NCBI GenBank assembly: GCA_965204735.1
Contig: OZ242008.1
Coordinates: forward strand, 224,001 to 288,000
Origin: Longimicrobiales bacterium
GTDB taxonomy: Bacteria; Gemmatimonadota; Gemmatimonadetes; Longimicrobiales; Gaopeijiaceae
Direction of reading: 5' to 3'
Length of the DNA stretch: 64,000 bases
Both the position numbers and the translations under genes were made by a program. Shown here in pieces: positions 6,404 through 40,640 of the stretch; position 1 is the first letter of the stretch; each line of letters begins with the position of its first letter. The notes under the pieces are model-generated. The model did not search any database and was not told where the DNA came from. It saw only the letters and a list, made by a program, of their open reading frames with translations.

Positions 6404-6515
6404 CCCGAAGTTCCGCAGGAATTCGCCAGTTCTAGCGTCACAAGTCGTTGCAGTTGAAGGACTTGCGGGCTTTCTGCCTGCGTCATATGTACCCATGTAA
6501 TGATCTTGATTGGAG

Positions 6516-6544
6516 TTGACATGATTTCGTTCCGACGCTACGTT
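6516..6544 (+). promoter_or_regulatory. Sigma70-type promoter for the transposase, probably leaderless
   Basis: TTGACA-N17-TACGTT; ATG 6552 lies 7 nt after the -10. Confidence 0.6.
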
Positions 6545-6551
6545 CATGTCC

Positions 6552-8276: not shown

Positions 8277-8432
8277 GCCGACGTACCCAGTAGCGTACAA
8301 CCGCCAGCATGATCTATCTCGCTACCACGCAACGACTTACGGCGTTATCGATTCCAGAACTTCGGGCTAGCCCGAAGCGGGCCGTCCCGTCGGCCGTTCG
8401 CCGGCACGCCTCACTCGTCCGAGTGGTCGACC

Positions 8433-8461
8433 TTGAGGGTCGCGTGTCGTCGTGTTATCAT
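8433..8461 (+). promoter_or_regulatory. Candidate promoter of the defence island
   Basis: TTGAGG-N17-TATCAT with TGn extension; ATG at 8467. Confidence 0.5.
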
Positions 8462-8466
8462 TTGAT

Positions 8467-11400
8467 ATGTGCCCCGTTCCTCTTCCCCGACCCGCCGCCG
8501 CTCGACCTGACCCAGGAGCAGCTTGCGGCACGGCTGCTGGTCACGCCGCTGACCGTCCACCGCTGGGAGGCCGGCCACTCCAAGCCCCGGCGGCTGGCCC
8601 TGGATCGCCTCCGCCAACTGGAAGAGGAGGTCTCCACGGCGCAGGCCGCTGCCGCTTCGGCCGACGCCCCTTGGTCCGGCGATTCGCCACTTCCCGGCCC
8701 GGACGGCCCCGGCGCCGCTCCGCCCCTCGACTTCAACGGGGACCCCGACGCCGTCTCGGCCGTGGCCGAAGCGCTGCGACTGGAGTACGGACACCAGTTC
8801 AACCCGGCGTTCGCCAGCGAGATCTCGCGGATCGACCCGTTGCCGCACCAGCGGATCGCGGTCTACGAGCACATGCTGCCGCAGGACCCGCTCCGCTTTC
8901 TTCTTGCCGACGACGCGGGGGCGGGGAAGACAATCATGACCGGACTGGTCGTGCGCGACATGCTCTCGCGCGGCCGCATCCGTCGCGTGCTGATCTCGCC
9001 CCCGGCAGGGCTGGTCGGCAACTGGGAGCGAGAGTTGCGGTCGCTCTTTCGCCTGCCGTTCAGGATCGTGAGCGGGCCGGACGTGACGGCGGCGACCCGG
9101 ACCGGCGCTGGCCGTCAACCCGGCAGCCCGTTCCAGGGAAGAGCGGGCGACTTGGCGATCGTCTCGATCGACACGCTGGCGGGCGAAGGCGTCTTCGCCG
9201 CGCTCCGCGACCCCGAAGTGGAACCCTACGACCTGATCGTCTTCGACGAAGCGCACAAGCTGGCGGCGTCCACCGACAACCGGCGCACGCGCAAGACATG
9301 GCGGTACCGGCTGGCGGAGGCGCTGGCCGGCTGCCCGTCCCCGCACGCCCGGTACTCGGGACTCGGCTGGTCCGCCCGCCATCTGTTGCTGCTCACGGCC
9401 ACGCCCCACATGGGCAAGGACTCGCCCTACCATCATCTGTGGCGGCTGCTGGACCCCCACGTCTTCGCGACCGGCGAAGCGTTCCGGCGCTTCCCGCAAC
9501 GCGAGCGGGGCCGCCACTTCCTCCGGCGAACCAAAGAGGAGACGCGCGACCTGGAGGGCCGCCCGCTCTACCGCAAGCGCTCCTGCGACACCTTCAGCTA
9601 CGAGCTCGCCCCCGGCCCCGACGGCGAGCAGGCCCTCTACGACGCCACGACCGACTACCTCCGTCACGTCTACGGCCAAGCGCCGGGCGGCGGCGCGGTC
9701 CGCTTGGCGATGGGCGTCTTTCAACGGCGGTTGGCCAGCTCGTCGTGGGCGCTGCTGCGCTCCTTCGAGCGACGGGCGGCCAAGCTGGCGGAGACGGCCG
9801 AGGGCCTGCGATCCGGCGTGCTCGCCCCCTCCGACGTGAACCGCAGCCGACGATACCTCGACCGCCGGTACCCGACCGACTACTTCGACGCCCACGGTGC
9901 CGACGAAGACGTGGCGGACGACGCCTCGGGCTCGACGGCGCTCGGCGGTCCCGCAGAAGGCCACGAGGACTTCGAGGCGGCCGTGCTGGGCGCGGTCGTC
10001 TCCGCCGACATCGAGGACCTGGAGCGCGAGATCGAGGTCGTGAACGAACTGGCCGCCCGGGCCAAGGCGGTCGTCGATTCCGGCCGCGAATCCAAGTTCG
10101 AGAAGTTGCGCGAGGTGCTGGAGGACCCCGCCCACGCCTCGGAGAAGTGGCTGATCTTCACCGAGCACCGGGACACGATGGACTACCTTGTGCGCCGCCT
10201 CGAAGGGCTGGGCCACGCGGGCCGGGTCGCGTGCGTCCACGGCGGCATGGCCTGGCCCGAGCGAGAGCGTCAAGTCGAGCACTTCCGCGACCCCGCGGGC
10301 GCCCGCTACCTGGTCGCCACCGACGCCGCCGGCGAGGGGATGAACCTCCAGTTCTGCGCCTTCATGGCGAACTACGACATCCCGTGGAACCCGGCGCGGC
10401 TGGAGCAGCGCATGGGCCGCATCCATCGCTACGGCCAGAAGCGCGACGTGCGCATCGTCAACTTGGTGGCGGGCAGCACGCGCGAAGGCCGGGTCCTGCA
10501 GGTGCTGCTCGAAAAGCTCGAAGCCGTGCGGCGGGAGCTGGCCTCCGAAAAGGTGTTCGACGTGATCGGGCGGCTCTTCGAGGACGCTTCGCTCAAGGAC
10601 TACATGATGGAGGCGATCGCCGACGCCGACGCCGACGCCGAGCAACAGGTGATCGAGCGGGTCGGCGCCGCCCTGGACGGCGGGCGGGTGCGGGCGGTGG
10701 CGGAGGCGGACGCGCGCACCTACGGTCCGCCGGGAGACGTGGCCGGCCGACTCGACGGCCTTCGGGACGACATGGAGCGGGAGCATTACCTGCGGCGGCT
10801 GCCCGCCTACGTCCGGTGCTTCGTGGAGAAGAGCGCGGCCCTGCTGGGCCTGGACGTGCAGGGCGACCTGGACGGCTGGTTCAGCTTGGCGCCCAAGCGT
10901 CCCGGGGCGCTCGATCCGCTGTTGCCGGCGCTGGACGGCTATCCGGTGGAGGCGCGCGCGCGGTTGAGCGTGCGTCGCGCAAAGTCCGACGCCGAGGACG
11001 GCATCTGGCTGCACCCCGGCGAGCCTGTCTTCGACGCCCTGCGCGAGCACGTCTTGCGCACCTTTGCCCCGGACGCCCTGCGCGGCGGCATCTTCATCGA
11101 CCCCCACGCGAAGGAGCCCTATCTATCTGGTCCATCTGGCCCTCGCGTCGGTGCAACTGGAGTCGCGTGGGAACGGCGACGGCTGTCCGTCCGATTCGCC
11201 GGTGCTCGAACGCCGCCTGCTGGCGGTGCGGCAAGAGGCGGACGGCCCGCCCATGGCAAGCGACGTCGACCAGCTCCTGCTGTTTCAGAGCGCCGGACAC
11301 GTGCCACCGGGATCTGTGCCTCTGGCGGCTCGCGGAATCGGAATGCGGGCCAACGCGGCGACCTACCTGGAGCATCTGACCCGGGACCGCTTGGTCGGCG

Positions 11401-12098
11401 ACCGACGGAAAGCCCTGGAGGGCGAGCTTCCCGAGCGCCGTCGTCGGGTGCGGGTGGGGTTCGACCTCCGCGCGGCCGACCTGGCGTCCCGCCGCATTCA
11501 GCTGGCCGCCAAGGAAGGCGCCGCCGACGATGTTGCGGCGGTCAAGCTCGCCCAGCGCGATCTCGTGGCGGAGAAGACGGAGGCGCTGGCGGAGCTCGAG
11601 GCCGCGCCAAGCCGGATCGCGGCCGGGGAGGTCCAGTTCGTCGTCCACGCGCTGGCCGTGCCCGCCACCAGCAGCGACGAGATCGACCAGTACGACGAGC
11701 GCGTCGAGCAGATCGCCGTGCGGACCGCTGTCGCGTGGGAGGAGGAGCGGGGCTCGGTCGTGCAGGACGTGAGCAAGCCCGCCCTTGCCCGCGCAGCCGG
11801 TCTTCCCGACTCCCCCGGCTTCGACCTCCTCGCCAGGATGCCGAACGGAGGGGCCCGACGCATCGAAGTGAAGGGCCGCCGGGACCGGGGCGGCGTGCAC
11901 GTAACCGGCAACGAATGGACCCAGGCGTGCCATCTGGCCGACAGCTACTGGCTCTATGTAGTTTGGAACTGCGCGACGCCCGAGCCGACCATGGTCCGCA
12001 TCCAGGACCCCTTCGCCAAGCTGCTCGCCAGCGAGCGTGCCTCGACCACCTACACGATCTCCCCCAAGTCCCTGCTGGACGCGGCGGAGCCAACCTGA
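8467..12098 (+). pseudogene. XRE-HTH / SNF2 helicase / DUF3883 nuclease fusion, frameshifted at ~11120 and probably also near the start
   Basis: LTQEQLAARLLVTPLTVHRWE (HTH); LLADDAGAGKT, DEAH, LLLTATPH, EQRMGRIHRYGQ; DUF3883-like GFDLL..IEVKGR..NEW..YWLYVV lies in the +1 frame (ORF 11064..12098); TATC duplication at 11120-11127. Confidence 0.8.
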
Positions 12099-12117
12099 AC
12101 AGGGAAGGAGAGGAAGC

Positions 12118-12534
12118 GTGGGAGCCGTTCATGTGGACGTGACGATCCGGAACCCAGCCGATCCGTCGAGGAGTTGGCGGAGCCGGTTCCTGGCGGGCAC
12201 GGGAGCGACGAACACGATGGTCCCTCCCGAGTGCATTGAGGCAGTCGGCCTAGCGTCCGACGGGCGGCGCGTGCATCTGCTGGCCGACGGTCGCCGGGTG
12301 GAAGCGGACGTCGCCGTGGCCAAGATCGAATTCCTGGACGAGTTCGTCGGCGGAACGGTCGTTACCGGCGAACCGGATTCGGAGCCCCTTCTCGGCCTAA
12401 CCGCCCTGCGATCCATGGGCGTGGAAGTGGACGCTGCCCGCCAGGAGTTGCGGAAGCTCCCGGCTGTGCCGTTGAAGCCCGTCCGTCGTCTACCGCGGAT
12501 CGCGGGCCCGGCTGGCTGTTCGCCGAAAAGGTAA
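12118..12534 (+). CDS. Clan AA (retropepsin-like) aspartic protease homologue with the catalytic Asp replaced
   Basis: GTG with AAGGAG RBS; FLAGTGAT at the FLVDTGA position; PLLGLTAL; GVEVD. Confidence 0.75.
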   Translation: MGAVHVDVTIRNPADPSRSWRSRFLAGTGATNTMVPPECIEAVGLASDGRRVHLLADGRRVEADVAVAKIEFLDEFVGGTVVTGEPDSEPLLGLTALRSMGVEVDAARQELRKLPAVPLKPVRRLPRIAGPAGCSPKR

Positions 12535-12538
12535 TCGC

Positions 12539-14650
12539 ATGGCCATCCACTACACTATGCCCATCTCCGCCTTCGTTGTGGACAAGCTTGGGGTGAAGCT
12601 CTACGACAAGGCCTCCGCGGTGATCGCCGAGTTGATCTCGAATTCATACGATGCCGACGCCCGCTCAGTCGTCGTCCGCGCGCCGATGGGCCAATACTTG
12701 GCATCACGTGCGGGGGGCGTTCTGACTGATAAAGGCTTCACCATCGAGGTTGATGACAATGGCACGGGGATGACGCCCGATCAGATGCAAGCCTTTTTCC
12801 TCCCCGTAGGCACCGAACGCCGAGATGATCCGCACCGTGGATCCACTTCTCCGATTTTCAAGAGAATGGTCATGGGTCGCAAGGGCGTTGGCAAGCTTGC
12901 CCCCTTCGGCATATGCAAGATTATTGAAGTGATCAGTGCCGGCGGCGAGGAGCGTAGCCGCAAGCTGCCCGACGGTACAGAATCAAGCGGCTACCTCACT
13001 TCGCATGTAATTTTGGACTATGATGAGATCAAGGCGTTAGGTATGCACCCGGAGCGTACCTATGAACCAACCCCCGGTGACCGGGACGGGACACTCTCTG
13101 ACGAGCCGGGCACCACAGTACGGCTTCGCAACTTCAGCTTCCGGCGAGTCCCGACCATTGACGTCCTGGCAAGCCAGATTGCGCAGCGATTTGGCATCCG
13201 CCGCCAGGATTGGCGAATCACGCTCCATGACACTGATGCGGATGTTGCCGAGCCGCAACGGGAAGTCGGCAAATTCGACGTGAAGGTGATGCCGGGCACG
13301 AGGGTGGTCTTTGATCCCAGCTCCACAGCCCGGAGCGCGGTCGGTCCAGACGGCAACGCACTTCCCCGCCTTCAAGCTGGCTTTGACCTTGACGGCGAAT
13401 TTTATGAAATCGATGGGTGGCTTGCCTACTCCAAGGCTCCATACAGAGACGATCTGATGGCTGGCATCCGAATCTACTGCCGTGGGAAGATCGCAGCGCA
13501 GACATCGGTATTCGATAGATCGGCCGGATTCACAGGAGAGCACAACGTACGGTCGTACTTGGTGGGCGAACTTCATGCAGACTGGTTGGACAGGGACGAC
13601 GACCTGATCCAAACCGACCGTCGCGACATTTTGTGGTCGGACCGTCTCGGGGAGAGGTTCCAGAAGTGGGGTCAAGAGGCTGTTGGATGCATGGGAAAGA
13701 TCGCTCGGGATCCTGCGAGAAAAGCGATTCTAGAATTGTTCTGGGCTACTGGCAATGTAGAGGAACACATTCTCAGTCACTTTCCGGGAGACCGTCAGGA
13801 GGCCATCAGGGACAACGCCGAGGAGCTTGCCAAGAGCTTCGGGCGCACGTTCAATCGAGCTGACGCGGAAGATCGAGCTGTAGTCCGGCGGTTCGTGAAC
13901 ATCAGCATCCTTCTTGCTCCTCATATCACCCTCGATCGCATGATGCAGGAGGCTGCGAGCAGAGCAGATGCACCAGTGGATGTCCTCAGTGGATTCTTGC
14001 GTACTGCCCGGATCGCGGAACTCTCCTCGTTTGGTCAAATAGCGGAAAACCGGATCAAGGTAATTCAACAACTTGACGCATCCAGGGCGGACTACGACGA
14101 CCACGAATCGACGTTGCAACAACTGATAGAGAACGCGCCTTGGCTGGTCAGACCTGACTGGGCCCCTGTGACTGCCAATCAGACGCTTGGTCGGCTGAAG
14201 AAGGAATTCGAGCGGTACTACAATGAACAGGAGAAGACGTCCGTAACTTTGCAGGACTTCGAAGAAACCGGCCGGAGACCGGACTTTGTGTTATTTGGCC
14301 AGGACAAGACGATTCAGATCATTGAGATCAAGCGGCCTGGACACGCTTTCACCAACAAGGAGATGGACAGGATTGCATCCTACTACCGCTGCATGCAAGC
14401 GTTCTTGAAGGAGCCCGGCAACGAAGGATTCGCCGATCGGTATGGTGACTTCCACATAACGTTGGTCTGTGACAAGCTGCGAATCGACGGGGTGCACGAA
14501 GACGCATTCGAAAGATATAGGGATCAACAGCGGCTGACACATCTGAATTGGAAGAGCTTTCTGGTGAGAACCGAAGACTTGCATCGCGACTTCCTTGACG
14601 AGGCGGAACGCCAGAAGCGTTTGGCCGTCGCCGATCAGGAGGCCGTATGA
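12539..14650 (+). CDS. MORC/GHKL ATPase with C-terminal PD-(D/E)xK nuclease-like domain
   Basis: ELISNSYDADA, DDNGTGM, GRKGVGK; RPDFVLFG...IIEIKRP. Confidence 0.8.
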   Translation: MAIHYTMPISAFVVDKLGVKLYDKASAVIAELISNSYDADARSVVVRAPMGQYLASRAGGVLTDKGFTIEVDDNGTGMTPDQMQAFFLPVGTERRDDPHRGSTSPIFKRMVMGRKGVGKLAPFGICKIIEVISAGGEERSRKLPDGTESSGYLTSHVILDYDEIKALGMHPERTYEPTPGDRDGTLSDEPGTTVRLRNFSFRRVPTIDVLASQIAQRFGIRRQDWRITLHDTDADVAEPQREVGKFDVKVMPGTRVVFDPSSTARSAVGPDGNALPRLQAGFDLDGEFYEIDGWLAYSKAPYRDDLMAGIRIYCRGKIAAQTSVFDRSAGFTGEHNVRSYLVGELHADWLDRDDDLIQTDRRDILWSDRLGERFQKWGQEAVGCMGKIARDPARKAILELFWATGNVEEHILSHFPGDRQEAIRDNAEELAKSFGRTFNRADAEDRAVVRRFVNISILLAPHITLDRMMQEAASRADAPVDVLSGFLRTARIAELSSFGQIAENRIKVIQQLDASRADYDDHESTLQQLIENAPWLVRPDWAPVTANQTLGRLKKEFERYYNEQEKTSVTLQDFEETGRRPDFVLFGQDKTIQIIEIKRPGHAFTNKEMDRIASYYRCMQAFLKEPGNEGFADRYGDFHITLVCDKLRIDGVHEDAFERYRDQQRLTHLNWKSFLVRTEDLHRDFLDEAERQKRLAVADQEAV

Positions 14651-15726
14651 GGACGACAGCCGTAGACCTGTTTTCCGGCGGAGGAGGGCTTACGCTTGGA
14701 ATGATGCGCGCAGGGTTCGACGTCGTGGCCGCCGTCGAGGTGGACAAGAGCGCATGTGCGACGTATGGGGCAAATCATCACGACGTATCTGCTTTGCAGG
14801 CCGACATTAGGACTCTAGACCAGCAAGACGTTGTTGGGCGGGTCGATGGAAGGCAGATAGACCTTCTTGCTGGATGTCCGCCGTGTCAGGGTTTCACGAG
14901 CCTTAGTGCTCGATACAAGAAAGACGATCCGCGGAATCAGCTGGTGCTCGAGTTGGCTCGGCTCGCAGAGGAGCTTCGACCTCGGGCGATCATGTTGGAG
15001 AACGTTCCGGGGCTTGCTGGGACTCAGATTTACCGGGAACTCTGGCGGCGACTCCATGCGGCGGGTTATCACCTTGCCGACCAAGTGCTCCAAGTAGCTG
15101 ACTATGGGGTGCCGCAGAGCCGTCGCCGTTTGGTGTTGCTGGGTGGGCGTGGTTTTGGAATCGCGATGCCGCAGCCGACACATTCTCGAAAAGCAGGTTG
15201 TGGAACGGCACATTGGCGAACCGTGAGGGATGCGATTGGTCACATGCCGCGGAATCCACCGACGCTGATTGAGGCGAGAAGTAGTGGAGGCGTTCGAGGG
15301 GCGAACTGGCACGTCGTGCGCTCGCTGTCACGGGCTAACGTTGCCAGAGTTCGAGCGGCGCGGCCGGGGAGGACGTGGCCGCACTTGCCGGAACAGTTGC
15401 GGCCGAAGTGTCATCGCGGGGACTATACGGGATACACGAACGTGTACGGTCGCATGGAGTGGGATCGGCCGTCGCCCACGATCACTGGCGGTTGCACCAC
15501 GCTGAGCAAGGGGAGGTTCGGGCATCCAGAGGAGGACCGCACGATTTCCGTCCGCGAGGCGGCGCTGCTTCAGACCTTTCCCGAGGACTACGTTTTTGAT
15601 ACGCCGTACATGGAACATGTCTGCAGCATTATTGGCAATGCGCTACCGTGCGACTTCGCCGAGGTGGTGGCACGACAGTGCTATGAAGCGTTGGACAGGC
15701 GCAGCGGCGGCAGCGTGGAGGCGTAA
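14647..15726 (+). CDS. dcm: DNA (cytosine-5)-methyltransferase
   Basis: DLFSGGGG, GCPPCQGF, ENVPG, PQSRRR, REAALLQTFP, IGNA; ATGA overlap with upstream gene. Confidence 0.93.
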   Translation: MRTTAVDLFSGGGGLTLGMMRAGFDVVAAVEVDKSACATYGANHHDVSALQADIRTLDQQDVVGRVDGRQIDLLAGCPPCQGFTSLSARYKKDDPRNQLVLELARLAEELRPRAIMLENVPGLAGTQIYRELWRRLHAAGYHLADQVLQVADYGVPQSRRRLVLLGGRGFGIAMPQPTHSRKAGCGTAHWRTVRDAIGHMPRNPPTLIEARSSGGVRGANWHVVRSLSRANVARVRAARPGRTWPHLPEQLRPKCHRGDYTGYTNVYGRMEWDRPSPTITGGCTTLSKGRFGHPEEDRTISVREAALLQTFPEDYVFDTPYMEHVCSIIGNALPCDFAEVVARQCYEALDRRSGGSVEA

Positions 15727-15736
15727 GAGGTAGTGG

Positions 15737-18700
15737 ATGCCGCCTGACCGCCGCCTGATCGAGGCTGCCTTCCCCGTCAAGCAGGTATCCCTCGACTCGG
15801 TTCACGAGAAGAACGTTCGGCACGGGCACATCTCGACGCTTCACATTTGGCCGGCGCGGCGGCCGCTGGCAGCCAGCCGGGCGGCGTTGCTGGCAACGTT
15901 GTTGCCGGAGCCGAAGGGGCGGAAGACAAGGTACGAGTTGCTCCGCCACATGGCAGGGACAGTTGTCGAGGTCACAAACTCGTCGGGGGAGGTGACGCGG
16001 GAGGAGACCAGGGACGGCATCTTTCGATGGGGAAGGGAGGGGCGCGTCCAGGCCGACGACAAGACGCTCGGGCGGATCGAGGCGTACCGGCGCGATGTGG
16101 AGGATGTCTTCGAAGGGCGGGCGCCTCGGGTGCTCGATCCGTTTGCCGGCGGCGGCGCGATCCCGCTGGAGGCGATGCGGCTGGGGTGCGATGCGGTGGC
16201 GGCGGACCTCAGCCCGGTGGCTTGGTTCATCTTGCGCTGCACGCTCCACTACCCGCGGTTGGTTGGCGGAGAGCAGCGGCCGTTTCCGGCGTTTGCGCTT
16301 CGCGACCGGGACTTTGCGGAGAAGTTCTTGAAGGCTCGGGGGCTGAAGAGCCGTGCAGCCCTCAAGGAAGGGCTCGCGACGCTCGGCGATGTCGAGGACC
16401 AGCCGGCAGAGTTGCTGGCGTCCGCAACCGACGTTTCGCCCGACATGCCGGCCAGCTTTGCTTGGCACCTCCGGGCATGGGGCGGCTGGGTGCTCGCCCG
16501 GGCGCGGAAGCGGCTTGCGTCCCGCTATCACACGTACGCGGAGTTCGAGCCCGTGCGTCGGAAGGGCAGGCGACGTGCCAACGCCGGACCGGAGAAGCGC
16601 TACAAGGCAAGGCCGGCGCAGCTGCTCAATCCCGACCATGAAGGCCGAGTGTCGCCCGATGCGCTCAACGCCGAGTTCGACTCGTACTACCTGAAGGACG
16701 AGGACAATCCGCGGTGGGTCGCCAAGCCGACGGTCGCGTACCTCTGGGCGCGGACGACGCGCTGCGCCTCTTGCCGGGCTGAGGTGCCGCTGCTCAAGAC
16801 GCGCTGGCTGTGCAAGAAGGCAAGAAAGCGCGTTCGGCTGACGATGACGGCGGGCGAAGACGGCGTGGTCTTCGGCGTTGAGAACGACGTCCCGGTCGGC
16901 CCCGGCACTCCGGCGCAGAAGCGTGCGCATGATCGGAACTTGGGCGCGGGAACGATGTCCAGCAGTGGCGTCACGTGTCCGTGCTGCGGCGTCATCGCGA
17001 CGATGTCCGACCTTCGGGTCGCCGGGCGTTCTGGACTGCTGGGCGAGCGCTTGACCGCCGTCGTCGTGGACGGCCAGCAGGGCAAGGAGTACCGAGCGCC
17101 AGCCGCCGACGAACTGCGAGCAGCGCATGTTGACGAGGCGGTGCTGGAATCGGCGTTTGCGGGCGTCCCGTTCGGCTTGCCGGACGAGCCGACGCCAAGC
17201 GAAGGCAGCTTGGGCATCCGAACTACCCGCTACGGCTTCGACACTTGGCGGAAGCTCTTCACGAACCGCCAGTTGCTGGCGTTGGGCACGCTGGTCCAGG
17301 AGATCCGCCGTTGCTCCGACGAGATGGCGGATCACTACCCGCTGGAATGGCGCGAAGCCCTGACCGCCTTCCTCGGCCTTACCCTGAGCAAGTTTACCGA
17401 CTACAGCAGCTCTTTATGTTCCTGGCACAATAGTGGCGAGAAACTAAGGAGCACCTTTGCCCGCTTTGCATTGCCGATGGTTTGGGACTACTGCGAAGTC
17501 AATCCCTTATCCAAGACAACCGGGGGCGTCAGTGCCATGACCGAGTGGGTCGCCCGCGTCGCCGAGCACCTGGACGACGCGACCGCTGGCGCGCCCATGC
17601 CCCAAGTGCTGTGCCAGTCCGCCATGGGGCCGCTCCCCGATTCCTTCGACGTCATCTGCACCGACCCGCCGTACTACGACGCCATCCCGTACTCGGACCT
17701 GATGGACTTCTTCCACGTGTGGCTGCGGCGGACGCTGCACGGACTCTCGCCCGAGACCGACGAAGCCTTCGCTGATCCGCTGGGTCCGAAGTGGGACGCG
17801 GAAGCGCAAGACGGCGAGCTGATTGACGATGCGGCCCGCTTCGGCGGCGACAAGAAGGCGTCCAAGCAGAACTACGAAGACGGCATGGCGAGGGCCTTCA
17901 AGAGGTTCTGGGAGGCTCTCCGGGATGACGGCAGATTGGTGATCGTCTTCGCCAACAAGCAGCCCGACGCCTGGGAGACGCTGGTGTCGGCGCTGATCCG
18001 CGCCGGGTTCGTGGTCGTCGGTTCGTGGCCAATCCAGACCGAAATGCAGAACCGCCAGCGGTCGCTTTCGTCGGCGGCCTTGTCGTCGTCGATATGGCTG
18101 GTGTGCAGGAAGCGCCTGCGAACCGCCCGCCCCGGCTGGGACGGCCCGGTGCTCAGCGAGATGAAGCAGAAGATCACGACCCGCCTCCGCGACTTCTGGG
18201 ACGCCGGCATCCGGGGTCCCGACTTCGTCTGGGCCGCCACTGGTCCCGCGTTGGAGGCGTTCAGCAAGCACCCCGTCATCAAGAAAACGGACACGCCCAA
18301 TGAGTTCTTGGCCGTCGCCGACTTCCTCCGGCATGTTCGCCGCATGGTCGTGGGCTTCGTGGTCAGCCGGCTGTTCGGCGAGGACGACGCCCCCGTGCAG
18401 GACCTGGACGACCCGACCACCTACTACCTCTTGCACCGCAGCGACTTCGGCATGGAACCGGCGCCGGCGGGCGCGTGCATCCTCTACGCCCTCTCTTGCA
18501 ACGTCTCCGACACGGACTTGGCCGGCCGCCACGACATCCTGCTCCGAGGCGGCGACCGCCGGAGCGCGCAGACCGAAGCCGACACCCCGGACTCACCCGC
18601 CGCCGGTTCCCCGGCCGTCTCCGGCAACCAAGCTCGGCTCAAGCCCTGGAACTGCCGCCGCTCCAAGACCCTGGGCGAACCGTCGTCCACGGGCACGCCC

Positions 18701-18943
18701 CCGCCCCTGATCGACTGCCTGCACAAGCTCATGCAGCTGTGGAAGACCGGCGAGCAGTCCCGCGTCGACGCCTACTTGGACATCCGCGGCCTCTGGCGTC
18801 ACGACCTCTTCGCCAAGCTCGTGCAGGCCCTCATCGAACTGGCCCCCGCCAACTCCGAGGAGCGTGCGACCATGGAGTACATCCAGAACCACCTCCGCAT
18901 GCGGGGTCCCGTCCCCGGCGCGTACCAACCGTCCCTCCTGTAG
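15737..18943 (+). CDS. DUF1156 adenine DNA methyltransferase with Zn ribbon
   Basis: LHIWPARRPLAASRA, DPFAGGG, CASC / CPCC, TDPPYYD. Confidence 0.9.
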   Translation: MPPDRRLIEAAFPVKQVSLDSVHEKNVRHGHISTLHIWPARRPLAASRAALLATLLPEPKGRKTRYELLRHMAGTVVEVTNSSGEVTREETRDGIFRWGREGRVQADDKTLGRIEAYRRDVEDVFEGRAPRVLDPFAGGGAIPLEAMRLGCDAVAADLSPVAWFILRCTLHYPRLVGGEQRPFPAFALRDRDFAEKFLKARGLKSRAALKEGLATLGDVEDQPAELLASATDVSPDMPASFAWHLRAWGGWVLARARKRLASRYHTYAEFEPVRRKGRRRANAGPEKRYKARPAQLLNPDHEGRVSPDALNAEFDSYYLKDEDNPRWVAKPTVAYLWARTTRCASCRAEVPLLKTRWLCKKARKRVRLTMTAGEDGVVFGVENDVPVGPGTPAQKRAHDRNLGAGTMSSSGVTCPCCGVIATMSDLRVAGRSGLLGERLTAVVVDGQQGKEYRAPAADELRAAHVDEAVLESAFAGVPFGLPDEPTPSEGSLGIRTTRYGFDTWRKLFTNRQLLALGTLVQEIRRCSDEMADHYPLEWREALTAFLGLTLSKFTDYSSSLCSWHNSGEKLRSTFARFALPMVWDYCEVNPLSKTTGGVSAMTEWVARVAEHLDDATAGAPMPQVLCQSAMGPLPDSFDVICTDPPYYDAIPYSDLMDFFHVWLRRTLHGLSPETDEAFADPLGPKWDAEAQDGELIDDAARFGGDKKASKQNYEDGMARAFKRFWEALRDDGRLVIVFANKQPDAWETLVSALIRAGFVVVGSWPIQTEMQNRQRSLSSAALSSSIWLVCRKRLRTARPGWDGPVLSEMKQKITTRLRDFWDAGIRGPDFVWAATGPALEAFSKHPVIKKTDTPNEFLAVADFLRHVRRMVVGFVVSRLFGEDDAPVQDLDDPTTYYLLHRSDFGMEPAPAGACILYALSCNVSDTDLAGRHDILLRGGDRRSAQTEADTPDSPAAGSPAVSGNQARLKPWNCRRSKTLGEPSSTGTPPPLIDCLHKLMQLWKTGEQSRVDAYLDIRGLWRHDLFAKLVQALIELAPANSEERATMEYIQNHLRMRGPVPGAYQPSLL

Positions 18944-18992
18944 GTCTCCTTGACATGCCCCGAACCCGATCGACATATTCTGGTCACAGAGC

Positions 18993-19127
18993 TTGTTCGT
19001 GAGCGTGCTGACGATGGGCGAGCTTCGCAGGGGCGCCGAGCACCTGAGCGGGCGGAGACGCCGCAACGTCGAGGACTTCGAACCGACGGGCCTCGACCTG
19101 CTGAACCCTTGGGTCCCGTCGTGCTAG
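18993..19127 (+). pseudogene. Internally deleted VapC/PIN toxin remnant
   Basis: Own translation: LFVSVLTMGELRRGAEHLSGRRRRNVEDFEPTGLDLLNPWVPSC*; matches VapC segments LSVLTLGELRKG and TRNVKDF..TG..LLNPW. Confidence 0.7.
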
Positions 19128-19176
19128 CCCGTCGTCACGCCGCCCCGGCCTGCGAGCATGGGGAGAGGGGCGGGCC

Positions 19177-20466
19177 ATGATCACTCGGATCCAAGCGCTA
19201 AACTACCGCTGTCTCCGTTATGTGGACGTGACGCTCGACCGCTTCCACGTTCTGGTCGGCCCCAATGCCAGCGGCAAGAGCACTCTGTTCGACGTCGTGT
19301 CGTTCATGAGCGACTTCGTTCGGGATGGGCTGGAAAAGGCGATCTCGAACCGCACGTACAACTTCCAGGACCTCGTGTGGGGCAGGCCGACGGAAGAGCT
19401 GAGCTTTGAGCTTGCCCTGGAAATCGCAGTTCCTGCAGACTTGCGAGGCCATGTTCCCACCAACCAGGAGTTCAATACGTATCGCTACGAGATCGCGGTT
19501 GGAGAGGTCGCCGAAAACATTCAGCACATCTACGACGAACGGGGAATACTGATCTCCAACCAATCGCCGCTGGCCGCGTCGCAAACTCCCCGACGCTCCT
19601 TCCCCGGGCCATCGCAGCCCCCCAAGACGATCTTGTCCGGAGTCCGGCACGACCACTCACTAGTGGTACTTGAGCGTGGTTTTGGTCAACTCACCTTCAG
19701 AGCCGAAGATCAGATTCCAGCAAGACTGAAGGACGAGGTGCCAGCCAGCACGGTACTTGGGCAACTGCCGACTGACCCCCTAATGTCCCATCTTCGACTC
19801 CTCGACGAGACTCGCTCTCCGGTCTCCAGGTACTTCTATTCCCTACTCTCTGCTGGCATAAACTCAGTATTCTTGGACAGCGGTACAATGCGAGCACCAA
19901 GCGGTTTCGCGTCCGGTCGAAACCCGTTGGCCTTGCGCGGTGCAAGACTGCCATGGACGGTGAAGGATGTTCTGGAGAATGACAGGGAGCTCTACAATGC
20001 TTGGATGAATCATGTCCAAGTAGAGATGGAAGACCTGGTCGGCGTCCGTGTCGTCCATCGCCCCGAAGATCGCACACATTACCTGATGCTGGAGTACAGC
20101 ACCGGCGTCGAGATTCCGTCGTGGATGGCATCCGATGGCACCTTGCGGTTCCTCGCCCTCATGTTGGCCGCGTACATGGCCGACAAGGATCAAGTGTACC
20201 TGCTGGACGAGCCAGAGAACGGCGTTCACCTCTCGGCGCTCGACGCCATCTATGACGCTACTTCCTCTGCCGGCGCCTCCCAGATTCTCGTTGCAACCCA
20301 TTCTCCCGCGTTTCTGTCCAAGGCCAGTCCCGAAGACGTAATTTGCTGTGCCAAAGACGCGGAAGGTGCCACGGACGTCGTCAGAGGCGACTGCCACCCC
20401 ATAGTCCATGAGTGGCAGGGGGCTGTAAACATGGACGTGTTCTTTGCCAAAGGAGTCGTCGAATGA
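19177..20466 (+). CDS. ABC-type (AAA_21-like) ATPase, MAD3-like
   Basis: GPNASGKS, ASDGTLRFL, LLDEPENG, VATHSP. Confidence 0.85.
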   Translation: MITRIQALNYRCLRYVDVTLDRFHVLVGPNASGKSTLFDVVSFMSDFVRDGLEKAISNRTYNFQDLVWGRPTEELSFELALEIAVPADLRGHVPTNQEFNTYRYEIAVGEVAENIQHIYDERGILISNQSPLAASQTPRRSFPGPSQPPKTILSGVRHDHSLVVLERGFGQLTFRAEDQIPARLKDEVPASTVLGQLPTDPLMSHLRLLDETRSPVSRYFYSLLSAGINSVFLDSGTMRAPSGFASGRNPLALRGARLPWTVKDVLENDRELYNAWMNHVQVEMEDLVGVRVVHRPEDRTHYLMLEYSTGVEIPSWMASDGTLRFLALMLAAYMADKDQVYLLDEPENGVHLSALDAIYDATSSAGASQILVATHSPAFLSKASPEDVICCAKDAEGATDVVRGDCHPIVHEWQGAVNMDVFFAKGVVE

Positions 20467-21116
20467 AGCCGACGCTTGGTATCGGCGATCTGATCGTACT
20501 GGTTGCCGACACCGACATGATGTGGACGATGAGAACATTGCTGACCCGCACGGAAGCACTCGGCGCAGCGTGTTTCGGATTCACCGTGGAGAAGCACCCC
20601 GGCCGAGATCCCGGGTGCCGAACCGACGCCGTGGAGTTCTTGCGTCGGCACTTGGGCAAGTACAGTCACTGTCTCGTGATCTTTGACCACCACGGTTGCG
20701 GAAGCAGGGATTCGAGAGATCGAATTCGGGCACGACTTGAAGCCGAACTCGCCCGCAATGGATGGAACAACCGGGCGGACGTGATTGTAATTCAACCAGA
20801 ACTCGAAGCATGGTTCTGGGGCGACCTGGCGGCATCCGCCAACATTCTCGGCTGGGCCGGAGACGCTCAGGAAATGCGTGCTTGTTTGGCGGCAAAGGGA
20901 TTGTGGCCAGATGGCCATGCCAAACCGCCGACGCCGAAGAAGGCGATGACAGAGGCCATACGCCGCGCTCCTTCCGGCCGGCCGCTCCGACGGAACGCTC
21001 GCATGTTTGAAGACATGGCGGCGGTTGCCGAAGTGGGCGAATGCCGGGATCCCGCCTTCCAGGAACTCCTCGCTACGCTGCGCCGCTGGTTCCCCAAACC
21101 CGAAACGCACCCATGA
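20463..21116 (+). CDS. MAD4-like (TOPRIM-like) partner of the ATPase
   Basis: DLIVLVAD, HPGRDPG, LVIFDHHG, VIQPELEAWFW; ATGA overlaps at both ends. Confidence 0.6.
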   Translation: MKPTLGIGDLIVLVADTDMMWTMRTLLTRTEALGAACFGFTVEKHPGRDPGCRTDAVEFLRRHLGKYSHCLVIFDHHGCGSRDSRDRIRARLEAELARNGWNNRADVIVIQPELEAWFWGDLAASANILGWAGDAQEMRACLAAKGLWPDGHAKPPTPKKAMTEAIRRAPSGRPLRRNARMFEDMAAVAEVGECRDPAFQELLATLRRWFPKPETHP

Positions 21117-24100
21117 AGCCCAAGCCCTGGACCGTCCTCGTCAGCCTCAAGGACGAACTCCGCAGCGGGGAACTCACGCTGGCCCAGTTCGCCGCCGATC
21201 TTCACGAGGTCGCGCTGGCGCGGGGAAAGCGTCCCATCTACGAGAACCCGGCCCAGTTCTTCGACCTCACCTTCCCGACGCCGCCGCTCCGCGAGCTGGT
21301 CAAGGACGTGGCGCTTCGCCTCTCCGGCAAGACCGACCGGGCGATCCGGCAGCTGGAGCTCACCTACGGCGGAGGCAAGACCCACACGCTGATCACGCTG
21401 TACCACCTCTTCCGCGACCCCGGGGCGTTGCCGGAGTCGCCCACGGCGACGGCGTTCCGCGAGCATGTGGGCGAGGACCTGCCGCAGGCGTTCGTCGCCA
21501 CGCTGTGCTTCGACAAGATCGACGCCGAGAAGGGCATCGAAGACGTGCGCGCACCGGACGGCGAGCGGCGCACCCTCAAGCATCCGTGGAGCGTGCTGGC
21601 CTTTCAGCTTGCAGGCGCCGACGGACTGCGCGCCGTCCACGCGGACGACAAGGACGAAGAACGAGAGACGCCGCCGGCCGAGCCGCTCCTCGTCAAGTTG
21701 CTCGAAGTTCCCGGCCGCGACGGCCTGGGCACGTTGATTTTGGTGGACGAAGTGCTGATGTACGCTCGCGAGAAGGCTGGACTCGATCCGGTCTGGCGCG
21801 ACCGCATCCGCGACTTCTTCCAGTACCTGAACCAGGCCGTCGCCAAGGTGGACCGGGCGGCGATCGTGGCGTCTCTTCTCGCCACCGACCCGTCGAAGGA
21901 ACAGGGCGACATGGGCGGCCTTCTCAAGAGCGACTTGTTCGCGGTCTTCCGGCGGCAGCGCGAGGAAGGCGTCCAGCCCGTGCGCAAGGAAGATGTGGCG
22001 GAGGTGCTGCGGCGACGCTTCTTCCAGGAGATGCCCGACGACGACGCGCGGCGCAACCAAGCCATCGCGGTCGTTCGCGGCTTGGCCAAGCTCGACGAGA
22101 CGATCGCGAAGGACAAGGCCGGGGCAGAGGACCGCTTCGTCCAGAGCTTCCCCTTCCACCCCGACATGACCGACGTCTTCTACAGCCGCTGGACCCAGCT
22201 GGACGACTTCCAGCGGACCCGCGGCATCCTGCGCACACTTGCGACGGCGCTCCGGGAGGCCGAGAAGTGGGACCGCAGCCCCGTCGTGGGAGCGTCGGCC
22301 CTCTTGGCGGCGCCCGGCGAGGAAAGCGTCTCGATGGCTCTGAGCGAGCTCGCCAACACCGCGAACTCGGCCACGGCGGGGAAGACCGCCGACTGGGGCA
22401 AGCTGCTGCAGGCCGAGTTCGACAAGGCGCGCCTGGTTCAGAGCGACCATCGGGACCTGGAGCGGAACCGCGAAGTCGAGCAGGCCGTCGTCTCGGTGTT
22501 CCTGCACTCGCCGCGCGGCGGCAAGGTCACGACGTTCGAGCTGCAACGGTTGGCGGGAACCTCGGGACCCGACGCCATCGAGTTCGAGAAGGGACTGCTC
22601 CGCTGGCGCGACGTCTCGTGGTTCCTGGACGACGAGGACTCGAACGACGACGAGCAGAGCCTCCCCAAGGAGTGGCGGTTGGGCACGCGCCCCAACCTGC
22701 GCAACATGCACGACGAAGCTTGTGCGCGGCGCGTCACCGACGCCGATGTGACGGAGCGCCTGCTGCAAACCGTGCGCAAGTGCCGGAGCAAGCTGGACGG
22801 GGGCGCGGCCGCGGCGGGCGCGAAGTGCCATCTGCTCCCCGCTTCGCCCGCCGATGTGGCCGACGACGGGGACTTTCACTACGTGATCCTCGGCCCCGAA
22901 GCGACATCGGATTCGGGGCGTCCCAGCGCCGCGGCCAAGCGCTGCATCGACGTCAAGTCCGACCGGGGCCAGCCGCGAGTCGCCCGTAACTCGCTCGTCT
23001 TGGCCGTCCCTTCGCGAAACGGGTTGGAAGCGGCCCGCATGCAAGTGCGTTCGCTGCTGGGTTGGGAGCATGTGGACGCCCAGCTGCGCAACACGAACGT
23101 GGACCCGCTGCGCGCCGAGCGTCTGCGCCGCCAACTTCGCGAAGCGCGCAACCGCGTTCCGGACGTCGTGCGCCAAGCGTACGGGGTCGTCGTGACGGTC
23201 AACGAGGAAAACGCGGTCCACGCCTTCAAGCTGCCGGCAAGCGCGGAGCCTCTGTTCCCCCAAATCAAGAACGACGAGCGCTCCCGCATCAAGGAAACGG
23301 CGGTGGACGCCGAAGCGCTGTTGCCCGGCGGACCCTACAACCTCTGGCGAGAAGACGAAGAGGCCAGGTTCGTGAAGGACTTGGCGGCCCCGTTCGCCCG
23401 CGACCCGCGCCTGCCCAAGCTCCTCGACACGCGGATACTGCTGAGCACGGTCCTGCAGGGCGTCGAGCGGGGGCTGCTTGTCGCTCGGCTGGTGCGGCCC
23501 GACGGGACTCGACGCACATGGTGGCGCGAACCCGTGGAATCGTCGGCGGCAGCGGACCCGGCGCTGGAAGCCGTCCTGCCGGAGAAGGCGCAACTGGAGA
23601 GCCTGCACGTGCATCTCCTGGCCCCCGGCCGCTTGCCCGGCCTCTGGCCTTCCGACGCCGAGTCGGCCGCCGAGCGGCGTCTTCCCGTCCGCGACCTGCT
23701 CGCCTGCTTCGCCGGCGGACACGTTGTCCAAGTGGCCAAGCAAGGCTACGACGACGTGCTCGCGGTTCCCGCTTGCTCTCCCGACATCGTTCTCGAAGCG
23801 GTCCGCGAAGCCGTGGAGGCGGGCGCGCTCTGGCTCGTCAACGGCCCGAGTTCCTGCTGGAAGGACGACATACCCGTGGGCGTGCTGGACAAGGACGCGG
23901 TGCTCCGGCCCCCGCCCGCCCTGGTCCCCGTGCAGGAGTTCACCGAAGAGGCGCTGCCCGGCGCATGGAAGGACGGCGAGACGAACGGCGCCGCCATCGG
24001 GCGCGCCCTGTCCCACCAGCGCGGCGAGCCCGTGCCCTGGGGTCTTGTGCGCGAGAGCATCTCGGAGGCGGTCAACAGCCGGTGGCTGGACGTGGTGAGC

Positions 24101-24412
24101 GGGGGAGCGGCAGGCGGCTACGTGACCGCCGGTGCATGGCGGTTGACGCAGCCGAAGGCCCGGCCCTCGTCCTCTGGGGCCGGCCCGGCGCCGGAGTCGC
24201 CCGCGACGCCGACCACAGCCATGGACGTATCGCAGCTCCTCGACCTGGCCCAGGTCGCCCCGAAGCTTCTGGAGGCCAGCGCGGGCCACGGCCTTTGCTT
24301 CCACGTGGGCGTCTCGCTGGACGCCGACGCGCCCGCCGGCCCGCGCAAGGCGGTGGACGGCCTGCTGGAAGAGGTGGCGCCCGGCTTCAGGAGCGGCTCG
24401 GAACCGGCCTAG
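21113..24412 (+). CDS. DUF499 AAA+ ATPase
   Basis: FAADL, YGGGKTH, LILVDEV, EVLRRRFF, FPFHP, FQRTRGILR. Confidence 0.9.
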   Translation: MKPKPWTVLVSLKDELRSGELTLAQFAADLHEVALARGKRPIYENPAQFFDLTFPTPPLRELVKDVALRLSGKTDRAIRQLELTYGGGKTHTLITLYHLFRDPGALPESPTATAFREHVGEDLPQAFVATLCFDKIDAEKGIEDVRAPDGERRTLKHPWSVLAFQLAGADGLRAVHADDKDEERETPPAEPLLVKLLEVPGRDGLGTLILVDEVLMYAREKAGLDPVWRDRIRDFFQYLNQAVAKVDRAAIVASLLATDPSKEQGDMGGLLKSDLFAVFRRQREEGVQPVRKEDVAEVLRRRFFQEMPDDDARRNQAIAVVRGLAKLDETIAKDKAGAEDRFVQSFPFHPDMTDVFYSRWTQLDDFQRTRGILRTLATALREAEKWDRSPVVGASALLAAPGEESVSMALSELANTANSATAGKTADWGKLLQAEFDKARLVQSDHRDLERNREVEQAVVSVFLHSPRGGKVTTFELQRLAGTSGPDAIEFEKGLLRWRDVSWFLDDEDSNDDEQSLPKEWRLGTRPNLRNMHDEACARRVTDADVTERLLQTVRKCRSKLDGGAAAAGAKCHLLPASPADVADDGDFHYVILGPEATSDSGRPSAAAKRCIDVKSDRGQPRVARNSLVLAVPSRNGLEAARMQVRSLLGWEHVDAQLRNTNVDPLRAERLRRQLREARNRVPDVVRQAYGVVVTVNEENAVHAFKLPASAEPLFPQIKNDERSRIKETAVDAEALLPGGPYNLWREDEEARFVKDLAAPFARDPRLPKLLDTRILLSTVLQGVERGLLVARLVRPDGTRRTWWREPVESSAAADPALEAVLPEKAQLESLHVHLLAPGRLPGLWPSDAESAAERRLPVRDLLACFAGGHVVQVAKQGYDDVLAVPACSPDIVLEAVREAVEAGALWLVNGPSSCWKDDIPVGVLDKDAVLRPPPALVPVQEFTEEALPGAWKDGETNGAAIGRALSHQRGEPVPWGLVRESISEAVNSRWLDVVSGGAAGGYVTAGAWRLTQPKARPSSSGAGPAPESPATPTTAMDVSQLLDLAQVAPKLLEASAGHGLCFHVGVSLDADAPAGPRKAVDGLLEEVAPGFRSGSEPA

Positions 24413-24514: not shown

Positions 24515-24655
24515 CCGAGCTTGCGGAGATTCACCGAGCCGCAAGACCACGCCGACCGACTTGCTCCGGGGCGCGCGCCGCGCCGGAGGCGGGGCAGCGG
24601 GGATCCTCCCGGCGCCCGCCGGATCGGCTGTCCACCAGGGTACAGGAGCCCCGAG

Positions 24656-27661: not shown

Positions 27662-27674
27662 GAGGCCGCGACGA

Positions 27675-38690: not shown

Positions 38691-38704
38691 TGAGGAGGAT
38701 GAAG

Positions 38705-40623: not shown

Positions 40624-40640
40624 CCGCGCGACGCCGCCCT

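What the first reader, a model, noticed from the sequence alone, without database searches (positions are those of the whole stretch)
8433..24412. Nested multi-layer defence island on a SNF2/DUF1156/DUF499 backbone
Seen: nine co-oriented units: HTH-SNF2-DUF3883, retropepsin-like, MORC-nuclease, C5 methyltransferase, DUF1156 adenine methyltransferase, VapC remnant, ABC ATPase, MAD4-like, DUF499. ATGA overlaps occur at 14647, 20463 and 21113, and 4-19 bp gaps join the helicase through DUF1156 genes. Known: DUF499 + DUF1156 + SNF2 helicase-nuclease is a restriction-like antiphage module related to BREX; the tested version has DUF3780 and a PLD nuclease, neither recognised here. Inference: the gaps between backbone genes are slots for exchangeable cassettes, giving one unit with two methylation chemistries and up to three nucleases. 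I do not recognise this combination as a named system; it is the best candidate for an undescribed one.
Basis: partly seen in the sequence, partly recalled or inferred. Interest (0 to 1): 0.82.

Follow-up and report, generated by a model that had tools for sequence, protein, structure and literature searches.

The report
Hma defence operon with passenger cassettes
This is a known kind of three-gene anti-phage system (Hma) that carries two intact passenger defence modules between its genes; its own helicase-nuclease gene is broken in this strain, and a conserved palindrome at the start of that gene is likely the site where the helicase's own DNA-binding domain regulates the whole array.

Summary
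The nine co-oriented units, the three ATGA overlaps and the 4-19 bp gaps are real. But the array is not an undescribed system. The backbone is Hma (PADLOC HmaA/B/C 485/373/243 bits; Type-1 BREX-related), and cargo between hma genes is published: 931 of 1,485 systems (Payne 2024). Slot 1 holds an inactive-looking aspartic protease and a type II-like RM pair (GHKL-PD-(D/E)xK nuclease plus C5 methylase). Slot 2 holds a vapC remnant and a MAD3/MAD4 (HEC-01-like) ABC ATPase-TOPRIM pair. In 68 related loci every one has cargo, and the cargo varies (Gabija, Dsr2, short Argonaute, Menshen); the two cassettes occur together in 6. hmaA is broken twice (62-bp deletion at 8507, 4-bp duplication at 11119); near-identical strains have it whole, and this genome has a second intact Hma. 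The freshest detail is a 12-bp palindrome over the predicted -10 box. It precedes HTH-fused hmaA (46 of 54; held-out 8 of 10) and almost never HTH-less hmaA (1 of 9; held-out 0 of 44), which suggests autoregulation. Verdict: new member of a known kind; interest 0.3.

The parts
6404..8366 (+). IS1634-family insertion sequence between the sterol-reductase gene and the hma promoter; 10-bp terminal inverted repeats, CTAG duplicated on both sides; transposase 6546-8276
   Evidence: NCBIfam NF033559 336 bits, cut-off 100; ends and CTAG from the sequence; the closest relative L043 has no IS here
8433..8461 (+). Predicted sigma-70-type promoter (TTGAGG, 17 nt, extended -10 TATCAT)
   Evidence: Consensus scan, 9 of 12 matches; 4 sites found in the region against 1.2 +/- 1.3 in shuffles; untested
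8456..8467 (.). Palindrome TATCA-TT-TGATA, likely operator of the HmaA N-terminal HTH; overlaps the -10 box and the first base of the hmaA ATG
8467..12098 (+). hmaA pseudogene: XRE HTH - SNF2 helicase - NOV_C (DUF3883) PD-(D/E)xK nuclease; 62-bp deletion at about 8507 (first HTH helix lost, frame broken) and 4-bp duplication at 11119-11122
   Evidence: PADLOC HmaA 485 bits; Pfam HTH_3, Helicase_C, NOV_C; lesions in contigs of X1/X2 without difference, absent from X4, X5, X7; whole 1227-aa relative P0207 at 97-98%
12118..12534 (+). Clan AA (retropepsin-like) aspartic protease, catalytic Asp replaced by Gly, likely inactive
   Evidence: TIGR03698 56.5 bits, cut-off 57.35; 22 of 23 covered copies in relatives keep Asp, only L043 shares Gly
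12539..14650 (+). GHKL (MORC/MutL-like) ATPase fused to a helical linker and a C-terminal PD-(D/E)xK nuclease; distant relative of BbrUII/HgiDII restriction enzymes; motifs intact
   Evidence: Pfam HATPase_c_3 53 bits, SduA_C weak; PADLOC REase_II 103 bits; NF050001 215 bits, cut-off 550; N, G1, G2 boxes and PD..EIK invariant in 56 homologues; model matches Hsp90/MORC/GyrB GHKL folds
14647..15726 (+). C5 cytosine DNA methyltransferase, cognate of the GHKL nuclease; motifs intact; target unknown
   Evidence: Pfam DNA_methylase 190 bits; TIGR00675 152 bits above cut-off; motifs
15737..18943 (+). hmaB, DUF1156 amino (N6-adenine type) methyltransferase, intact
   Evidence: PADLOC HmaB 373 bits; DPFAGGG and DPPY motifs
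18954..19127 (+). Remnant of a vapC (PIN) gene with an internal deletion; its antitoxin gene is gone
   Evidence: No Pfam hit itself; 88-92% DNA match to two pieces of the vapC in L043, which has a Phd/YefM antitoxin; the L032 copy hits PIN above cut-off
19177..20466 (+). ABC (OLD-type) ATPase, MAD3-like / HEC-01A-like, intact
   Evidence: NCBIfam MAD3 353 bits, cut-off 420; PADLOC HEC-01A 120 bits; Walker A, signature, D-loop, H-loop
20463..21116 (+). TOPRIM-fold nuclease, MAD4 family (HEC-01B-like), intact
   Evidence: NCBIfam MAD4 199 bits, above cut-off 160; model pLDDT 90, best match OLD TOPRIM 6nk8 Z 9.4, rmsd 4.5, 175 aligned; D16, D49, D75, E113, E115, K154 invariant in 18 homologues
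21113..24412 (+). hmaC, DUF499 AAA+ (STAND/ORC-type) ATPase without N-terminal HEPN, intact
   Evidence: PADLOC HmaC 243 bits; Pfam DUF499 62 bits; Walker A and B

Best explanation
This is an Hma (Type-1 BREX-related) operon whose two gaps hold separately acquired passengers, likely each working as its own defence layer, while the backbone's helicase-nuclease gene is broken in this strain. In the intact form, HmaB would methylate host DNA, HmaC would scaffold recognition and HmaA would nick foreign DNA (HmaA activity shown in Halomonas; the HmaB/HmaC roles are published inference). The GHKL nuclease and C5 methylase are predicted to form a type II-like restriction-modification pair with its own target. 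The MAD3/MAD4 pair is predicted to form an ATPase-TOPRIM nuclease complex acting as a back-up. All genes likely share one promoter at 8433-8461, which the HTH at the front of HmaA likely binds at the overlapping palindrome and represses. In this strain HmaA cannot be made in frame, so the locus likely survives as a carrier for its passengers, with a second intact Hma elsewhere in the genome relaxing selection.
For: Shown: best PADLOC hits are HmaA, HmaB, HmaC in the canonical order. All 68 complete relatives have cargo in at least one slot, 62 in slot 1 and 55 in slot 2; slot lengths run from 33 bp to 9.5 kb; cargo includes GajA/B, Dsr2, Sir2-APAZ Argonaute partners, Menshen, Ppl and PDC systems. 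The closest relative L043 (HmaB 88%) has a different RM pair in the same slot (GHKL 27%, C5 53%) between the same neighbours. Passengers have lower GC3 (0.65-0.69) than the backbone (0.85-0.91). GHKL-C5 relatives at 39% lie without hma genes within about 8 kb in G225 and G466. Both hmaA lesions stand in short-read contigs without difference (X2) and are absent from close strains of two other studies; 11 of 15 members of the P0207 cluster are full length. A second Hma with open frames lies at G000:C1:647230-677128. Palindrome: 46 of 54 HTH-hmaA against 1 of 9 HTH-less, 28 of 1,580 random windows, 0 of 77 hmaB and 1 of 73 hmaC starts; held-out loci 8 of 10 against 0 of 44. Published: embedding in 931 of 1,485 Hma systems, HmaA nuclease needed for defence, MAD3-MAD4 a 2:2 ATPase-DNase.
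Against: No activity, transcript or methylome was tested. The GHKL protein (215 of 550 bits) and MAD3 (353 of 420) are below the curated cut-offs. HEC-01 gave no defence when tested alone and HmaB gave no methylation phenotype in Halomonas, so stand-alone function of each layer is not shown. The two cassettes co-occur more than chance (6 of 7 against 10 of 61, Fisher p 4e-4), which could mean coupling, although the tree-aware test is not significant. A second promoter-like site at 18950-18979 (10 of 12) could drive slot 2 separately. In many relatives the palindrome lies 120-200 bp before the HTH codons, apparently upstream of the promoter, so repression is not the only possible sign; 8 of 54 HTH loci lack it at one mismatch.
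Confidence: 0.8

Rival explanations
1. The GHKL-C5 pair and MAD3/MAD4 are functionally coupled inside Hma: MAD3/MAD4 would guard the methylation-based layers and fire when a phage inhibits them, as PrrC and PARIS do, so this layout would be a selected composite.
For: 6 of 7 loci with this RM pair also have MAD3/MAD4 in slot 2, against 10 of 61 others, in records titled Gemmatimonadota, Pseudomonadota and Acidobacteriota. In MADS, mad3-4 sit beside an N6 methylase and are needed for defence; mad5 could be deleted only with mad2 or mad3.
Against: 10 of 16 slot-2 MAD3/MAD4 loci lack this RM pair; the tree-aware test has 6 independent pairs, median p 0.5; shared ancestry of whole arrays explains the excess; L048 has a partly deleted MAD4.
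Confidence: 0.15
2. The whole array is one new obligate machine with two methylation chemistries and three nucleases.
For: Tight spacing and three ATGA overlaps; the same order including the protease recurs in L034 and L104.
Against: Only 2 of 68 relatives have the full order; 51 of 68 have neither cassette in these slots; the sister locus L043 swapped the RM pair; hmaA, the protease and vapC are broken while the rest is intact.
Confidence: 0.03
3. The locus is a silent, decaying sink: loss of hmaA plus the IS upstream shut it down and the passengers are merely not yet decayed.
For: Three broken units and an adjacent IS; hmaA is also deleted in L043 and L031; several other Hma-like loci in the genome.
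Against: The IS ends about 66 bp before the predicted -35 and leaves promoter and palindrome intact; six genes keep open frames and all catalytic motifs; the protease and vapC damage is older than the hmaA lesions (shared or paralleled in L043).
Confidence: 0.2
4. The palindrome is only a conserved -10 promoter element or a host-factor site, not an HmaA operator.
For: Its left half is the predicted -10 hexamer here.
Against: It is absent before HTH-less hmaA (0 of 44 held-out); both halves change together with the HTH type; it is rare in whole genomes, 1-4 sites against 7-19 for the reversed control.
Confidence: 0.15

Closest known systems
Hma system with embedded genes (Payne 2021 PMC8565338; Payne 2024 10.1101/2024.01.29.577857; Liu 2024 PMC11232893) = Type-1 DUF499-centred BREX-related system (PMC12839542)
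   Same: hmaA-hmaB-hmaC order; SNF2 + NOV_C, DUF1156 methylase, DUF499 ATPase; co-oriented cargo in both gaps; ABC ATPase pair between hmaB and hmaC
   Different: HmaA has an N-terminal XRE HTH (listed in rows of Liu's Table S6, not discussed in the main texts searched) with a matching palindrome; hmaA is a pseudogene here; HmaC has no HEPN
MAD3-MAD4 module of MADS (PMC13662399; 10.1101/2023.03.30.534895) and HEC-01
   Same: ABC ATPase followed by a TOPRIM protein; MAD4 model passed; six of the seven pocket residues named for MAD4 have invariant counterparts by motif order
   Different: No MAD5-MAD8 in the locus, so not a MADS; MAD3 below cut-off; the position of MAD4 E83 is His here and varies among homologues; embedded in Hma
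BbrUII/HgiDII-type GHKL restriction enzymes with a C5 methylase; MORC/paraMORC RM operons (PMC2292703)
   Same: GHKL ATPase + restriction-fold nuclease beside a cytosine methylase
   Different: 215 bits against a cut-off of 550; order is nuclease then methylase, the reverse of the closer HgiDII-like pairs in L037/L038; target unknown
Type-2 BR / DUF3780-PLD restriction-like system
   Same: DUF499, DUF1156 and SNF2 core
   Different: No DUF3780, no PLD/HKD; scores far below Hma models and NCBIfam cut-offs
Self-regulating RM proteins: M.SsoII (PMC3978073); RptR (PMC12255303)
   Same: A defence operon regulated from its first gene through a palindrome in its promoter; M.SsoII carries the regulatory domain as an N-terminal fusion
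   Different: Here the HTH is fused to the helicase-nuclease; the site is 12 bp, not RptR's 6-bp TAGCTA; binding untested

Membership tests
Hma / Type-1 BR | hmaA, hmaB, hmaC on one strand in this order, with at most three genes in each gap | tested here: met
   Best PADLOC hits 485/373/243 bits; three units in each gap
Hma / Type-1 BR | Helicase with C-terminal PD-(D/E)xK (NOV_C) nuclease | tested here: met
   NOV_C 54.6 bits, cut-off 22; D, ExK and E motifs present, but out of frame in this strain
Hma / Type-1 BR | No DUF3780 and no HKD/PLD nuclease (excludes Type-2) | tested here: met
   No such Pfam or PADLOC hit on any gene of the locus
Hma / Type-1 BR | Intact core genes | tested here: not met
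   hmaA broken twice; a degraded member of the family
Hma / Type-1 BR | Anti-phage activity; DNA methylation by HmaB | not testable with these tools
   No assay or methylome
MAD3-MAD4 module | MAD4 family membership and TOPRIM fold with acidic pocket | tested here: met
   NF047734 199 bits, cut-off 160; fold match to OLD TOPRIM; invariant acids
MAD3-MAD4 module | MAD3 family membership | tested here: inconclusive
   353 bits over the full model, cut-off 420
MADS system | MAD6, MAD7, MAD8 present (mandatory in the authors' model) | tested here: not met
   No such PADLOC or NCBIfam hit among the genes of the locus and its flanks
HEC-01 | ABC ATPase + TOPRIM pair embedded in Hma | tested here: inconclusive
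   Architecture fits; HEC-01A 120 bits, HEC-01B only E 4.6e-5; MAD3/MAD4 models fit better
BbrUII/HgiDII family REase | NF050001 above cut-off | tested here: not met
   215 bits against 550, full-length match: works like it, not a member
Type II RM pair | Adjacent methylase and nuclease with intact motifs | tested here: met
Type II RM pair | Shared recognition sequence and restriction activity | not testable with these tools
   Word-avoidance scan was not attributable
Clan AA aspartic protease | D-[TS]-G catalytic motif | tested here: not met
   G-T-G here and in L043; Asp in 22 of 23 covered copies
Autoregulatory HTH-operator pair | Palindrome that co-occurs with the HTH | tested here: met
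Autoregulatory HTH-operator pair | Binding and effect on transcription | not testable with these tools
   Needs EMSA and reporter

The most novel reading that the evidence does not exclude
A large Hma subfamily uses its helicase-nuclease effector as its own transcription factor: the N-terminal XRE HTH binds a co-evolving 12-bp palindrome and sets expression of the backbone and of every cassette that lands in its slots. The recurring GHKL-C5 plus MAD3/MAD4 cargo would be a guard pair, and strains that lose HmaA, as here, would turn the operon into a de-repressed carrier of the passengers.
Probability: 0.25. Interest if true: 0.58.

Novelty: new member of a known kind. Interest (0 to 1): 0.3.

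Why it matters
The array itself is one more example of a published pattern. Two details could be useful. First, the HTH-palindrome pair gives a direct, cheap test of how Hma and its embedded systems are co-regulated, a question Payne 2024 leaves open. Second, the locus shows the host system decaying while its passengers stay intact, with whole alleles in near-identical strains, which bears on whether embedding benefits host system or passenger. The GHKL nuclease family (1,905 proteins among 7,998 scored) has no solved sequence relative and no known target.

Tried and rejected
Assembly error for the hmaA breaks: rejected, short-read contigs of X1/X2 carry them with no difference (these runs may be the source sample, so they show the letters are real, not that they are widespread). 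Compensation between the two breaks: rejected, -62 and +4 do not restore the frame. Type-2 BR and MADS membership: rejected (membership table). Druantia II: the C5 methylase scores 313 bits on DruM2, but no other Dru gene was hit. Target of the C5 methylase from word avoidance: many palindromes are avoided, none attributable. Metagenome scan for the GHKL gene gave two fragment hits only. Phylum search found the GHKL gene in 3 of 401 genomes at E 1e-60. No RNA holder listed. No PDB sequence relative for MAD4 or the GHKL protein; the whole-chain fold search tested only the GHKL part, so the nuclease call rests on motifs and weak Pfam hits. Slot ORF clustering (333 ORFs, 115 clusters) is crude: the largest cluster is chained and some ORFs are false, so it is not used as a count of cassette types. 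The first threshold for MAD3/MAD4 missed L057 and L058 and was replaced. RptR was checked as a possible match for the palindrome and is unrelated. No complex prediction was run. The supplements of Payne 2024 and PMC12839542 could not be read and may list this cassette pair or the HTH fusion.
Full report
Observation. The window holds, on the + strand, a helicase region (8467-12098), a small protease gene (12118-12534), a GHKL-nuclease (12539-14650), a C5 methylase (14647-15726), a DUF1156 methylase (15737-18943), a 57-codon vapC remnant, an ABC ATPase (19177-20466), a TOPRIM protein (20463-21116) and a DUF499 ATPase (21113-24412). The three ATGA overlaps and the short gaps are as reported. The genome is one 4.14-Mb contig of 69% GC. 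The closest related locus, L043, is in a record titled Longimicrobiales (Gemmatimonadota) and has the same flanking genes; sponge and marine metagenomes are among the listed holders.

Backbone. Hma was named in PMC8565338 (passages) and is the Type-1 BREX-related system of PMC12839542 (passages, section 29 and part 1 of section 35). Payne 2024 (parts 1-4 of 5 of the text) found embedded genes in 931 of 1,485 Hma systems, 376 cassettes, most often ABC ATPases with TOPRIM, NERD or PIN partners; their HEC-01 (ATPase + TOPRIM) gave no defence in their panel. Liu 2024 (abstract, part of Results, section 18, passages, supplement rows) showed that HmaA alone restricts T4 through its NOV_C nickase, found insertions in 66.5% of loci, and saw no effect of HmaB on phage. 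Their Table S7 already lists a HATPase_c_3 gene followed by a C5 methylase near hmaA in a Gemmatimonadetes bin.

Slots in relatives. A scan with HmaB gave 138 relatives, of which the best 79 loci were held. Eleven were dropped (one duplicate, ten without all three gene ends), leaving 68. All 68 have cargo in at least one slot, 62 in slot 1, 55 in slot 2, 49 in both. A scan of 33 chosen cargo proteins hit GajA/GajB, Dsr2, Sir2-APAZ Argonaute partners, Menshen, Ppl, type IIG RM and several PDC systems; 11 had no hit. This window's RM pair is in 7 of 68 (one truncated), MAD3/MAD4 in slot 2 in 16 and in slot 1 in 2, the protease in 21. The full order with the protease recurs in L034 and L104. The two cassettes co-occur in 6 of 7 against 10 of 61 (Fisher p 4e-4), but on the 64-row HmaB tree there are only 6 independent pairs and the sign test has median p 0.5, so coupling is neither shown nor excluded. 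L043 has a different RM pair in the same slot and a second one in slot 2. Passengers have GC3 of 0.65-0.69 against 0.85-0.91 for the backbone. The script flagged a repeat touching a core gene in 11 of 69 loci; by hand, 7 (L043, L050, L051, L054, L057, L063, L096) have a copy of a core-gene end inside a slot, which suggests cassettes arrive by recombination with pieces of their former flanks; this window has none.

Slot 1. The protease misses TIGR03698 by one bit and has Gly for the catalytic Asp, as does L043; 22 of 23 covered copies keep Asp. The GHKL protein keeps its N, G1 and G2 boxes and a PD..EIK motif, invariant in 56 homologues; its model (pLDDT 78) matches Hsp90, MORC and GyrB GHKL domains. 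It is a distant full-length relative of BbrUII/HgiDII enzymes (215 bits, cut-off 550), whose methylases are C5 enzymes, M.HgiDII on GTCGAC (PMC5867850, passages); GHKL proteins in RM operons with cytosine methylases were described in PMC2292703 (passages). Relatives at 39% lie beside a C5 methylase without hma genes in G225 and G466. I read it as a type II-like RM pair of unknown target (inferred).

Slot 2. The remnant matches two pieces of a vapC that follows a Phd/YefM antitoxin in L043. The TOPRIM gene passes the MAD4 model (199 bits, cut-off 160) and the ATPase nearly passes MAD3 (353 of 420). Its model best matches the OLD TOPRIM domain (Z 9.4). MAD3-MAD4 of Pseudomonas is a 2:2 ATPase-DNase complex (PMC13662399, abstract and sections 4, 28, 29) and is needed for MADS defence (10.1101/2023.03.30.534895, passages). 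MAD6-8 are not in this locus, so this is the module, not MADS.

hmaA is broken. A 4-bp duplication at 11119 separates helicase from nuclease. It is in a contig of X2 without difference and is absent from contigs of X4, X5 and X7. A contig of X7 has about 62 more bases at 8507, and the 98%-identical whole protein P0207 begins with the residues that ATG 8467 encodes and has 34 codons where the window has 40 bases: a 62-bp deletion that removes the first HTH helix and breaks the frame. Eleven of 15 members of that cluster are full length. An IS1634 ends about 66 bp before the predicted -35. The genome has a second Hma with open frames and an HTH and three more distant Hma-like loci. In the survey hmaA was whole in 53 of 61, hmaB in 74 of 79, hmaC in 65 of 71 (crude test); hmaA is also deleted in two close loci, L043 and L031.

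Palindrome. TATCA-TT-TGATA at 8456-8467 overlaps the predicted -10 box and the start codon. With the pattern TA.CA..TG.TA at up to one mismatch within 280 bp, it precedes 46 of 54 HTH-bearing hmaA genes (this count includes the window, its second locus and three near-identical copies) and 1 of 9 without HTH, that one being the deleted allele L043; controls were 28 of 1,580 random windows, 0 of 77 hmaB and 1 of 73 hmaC starts. The pattern was drawn from that set, so the real test is the held-out set from three genome searches: 8 of 10 new HTH loci against 0 of 44 without (raw 8 of 11 and 0 of 43, L157 moved by hand because it has no HTH). In five whole genomes a stricter form occurs 1-4 times against 7-19 for the reversed control; in this genome 2 of 4 exact sites precede the two HTH-hmaA genes. 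The box type follows the HTH type: helices ending N-R-W-E have TAG/TAA-type halves in 10 of 11 boxes, the others TAT halves on both sides in 27 of 31; this is one deep split in the tree, so one contrast only. The N-terminal 160 residues find 2,124 proteins among 7,998 scored. The fusion is listed in rows of Liu's Table S6 but the main texts of Liu and PMC12839542 do not discuss it, and searches found no paper on an Hma operator. Analogues are M.SsoII (abstract) and RptR (abstract and passages). Earlier notes of this scan report the same self-regulation idea and the gene-end scars; I saw them after my own tests and do not count them as support.

Mechanism and verdict. Shown: identity of the parts, exchangeable cargo, the lesions, the palindrome's link to the HTH. 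Inferred: one transcript, independent action of the layers, repression by HmaA, survival of the locus as a carrier. The finding is a new member of a known kind. Interest 0.3; the autoregulation and guard-pair reading has probability about 0.25 and would deserve about 0.58.

Noticed in passing
window 55122-57107: Cluster of 17 co-oriented tRNA genes in 2 kb, a third of the 50 in the genome, including its only Phe, Trp and Asp tRNAs, so likely a core cluster and not mobile cargo
   Followed up: partly
window 4994-6403: ERG4/ERG24 sterol reductase gene (Pfam 243 bits), directly before the IS; also in L043 at 92%
   Followed up: no
window 3885-4922: Rpn/YhgA-like nuclease gene; about 30 related stretches across the genome, some in tandem arrays
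   Followed up: no
window 33875-35209: ISNCY-family transposase above cut-off
   Followed up: no
window 24521-28970, 35781-45208: SusC/SusD-type TonB receptor pair after hmaC (Pfam) and two more similar-looking pairs by sequence
   Followed up: no
G000:C1:647230-677128 (L110, L111): Second, intact HTH-Hma with a 16-kb slot 1 holding a protease, a C5 methylase, a GHKL protein and two near-duplicate 980-aa genes
   Followed up: partly
L043:13200-19212: Slot 2 stacks vapBC, a C5-GHKL pair, a 51-bp copy of the hmaC start and a copy of the vapC end before MAD3/MAD4: a record of stepwise cassette gain
   Followed up: partly
window 8452-11379: The shifted frame entered from ATG 8467 stays open for about 970 codons, so the broken hmaA may still be translated in the wrong frame, which would limit polarity on downstream genes; untested
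   Followed up: no
window 8467: The hmaA ATG lies 6 bases after the predicted -10 box with no room for a ribosome-binding site, which would make the message leaderless (inference)
   Followed up: no
survey loci, slot 1: A clan AA aspartic protease lies in slot 1 in 21 of 68 loci, often 15-60 bp after hmaA, mostly with an intact motif; no PADLOC model matches it and its role is unexplained
   Followed up: partly
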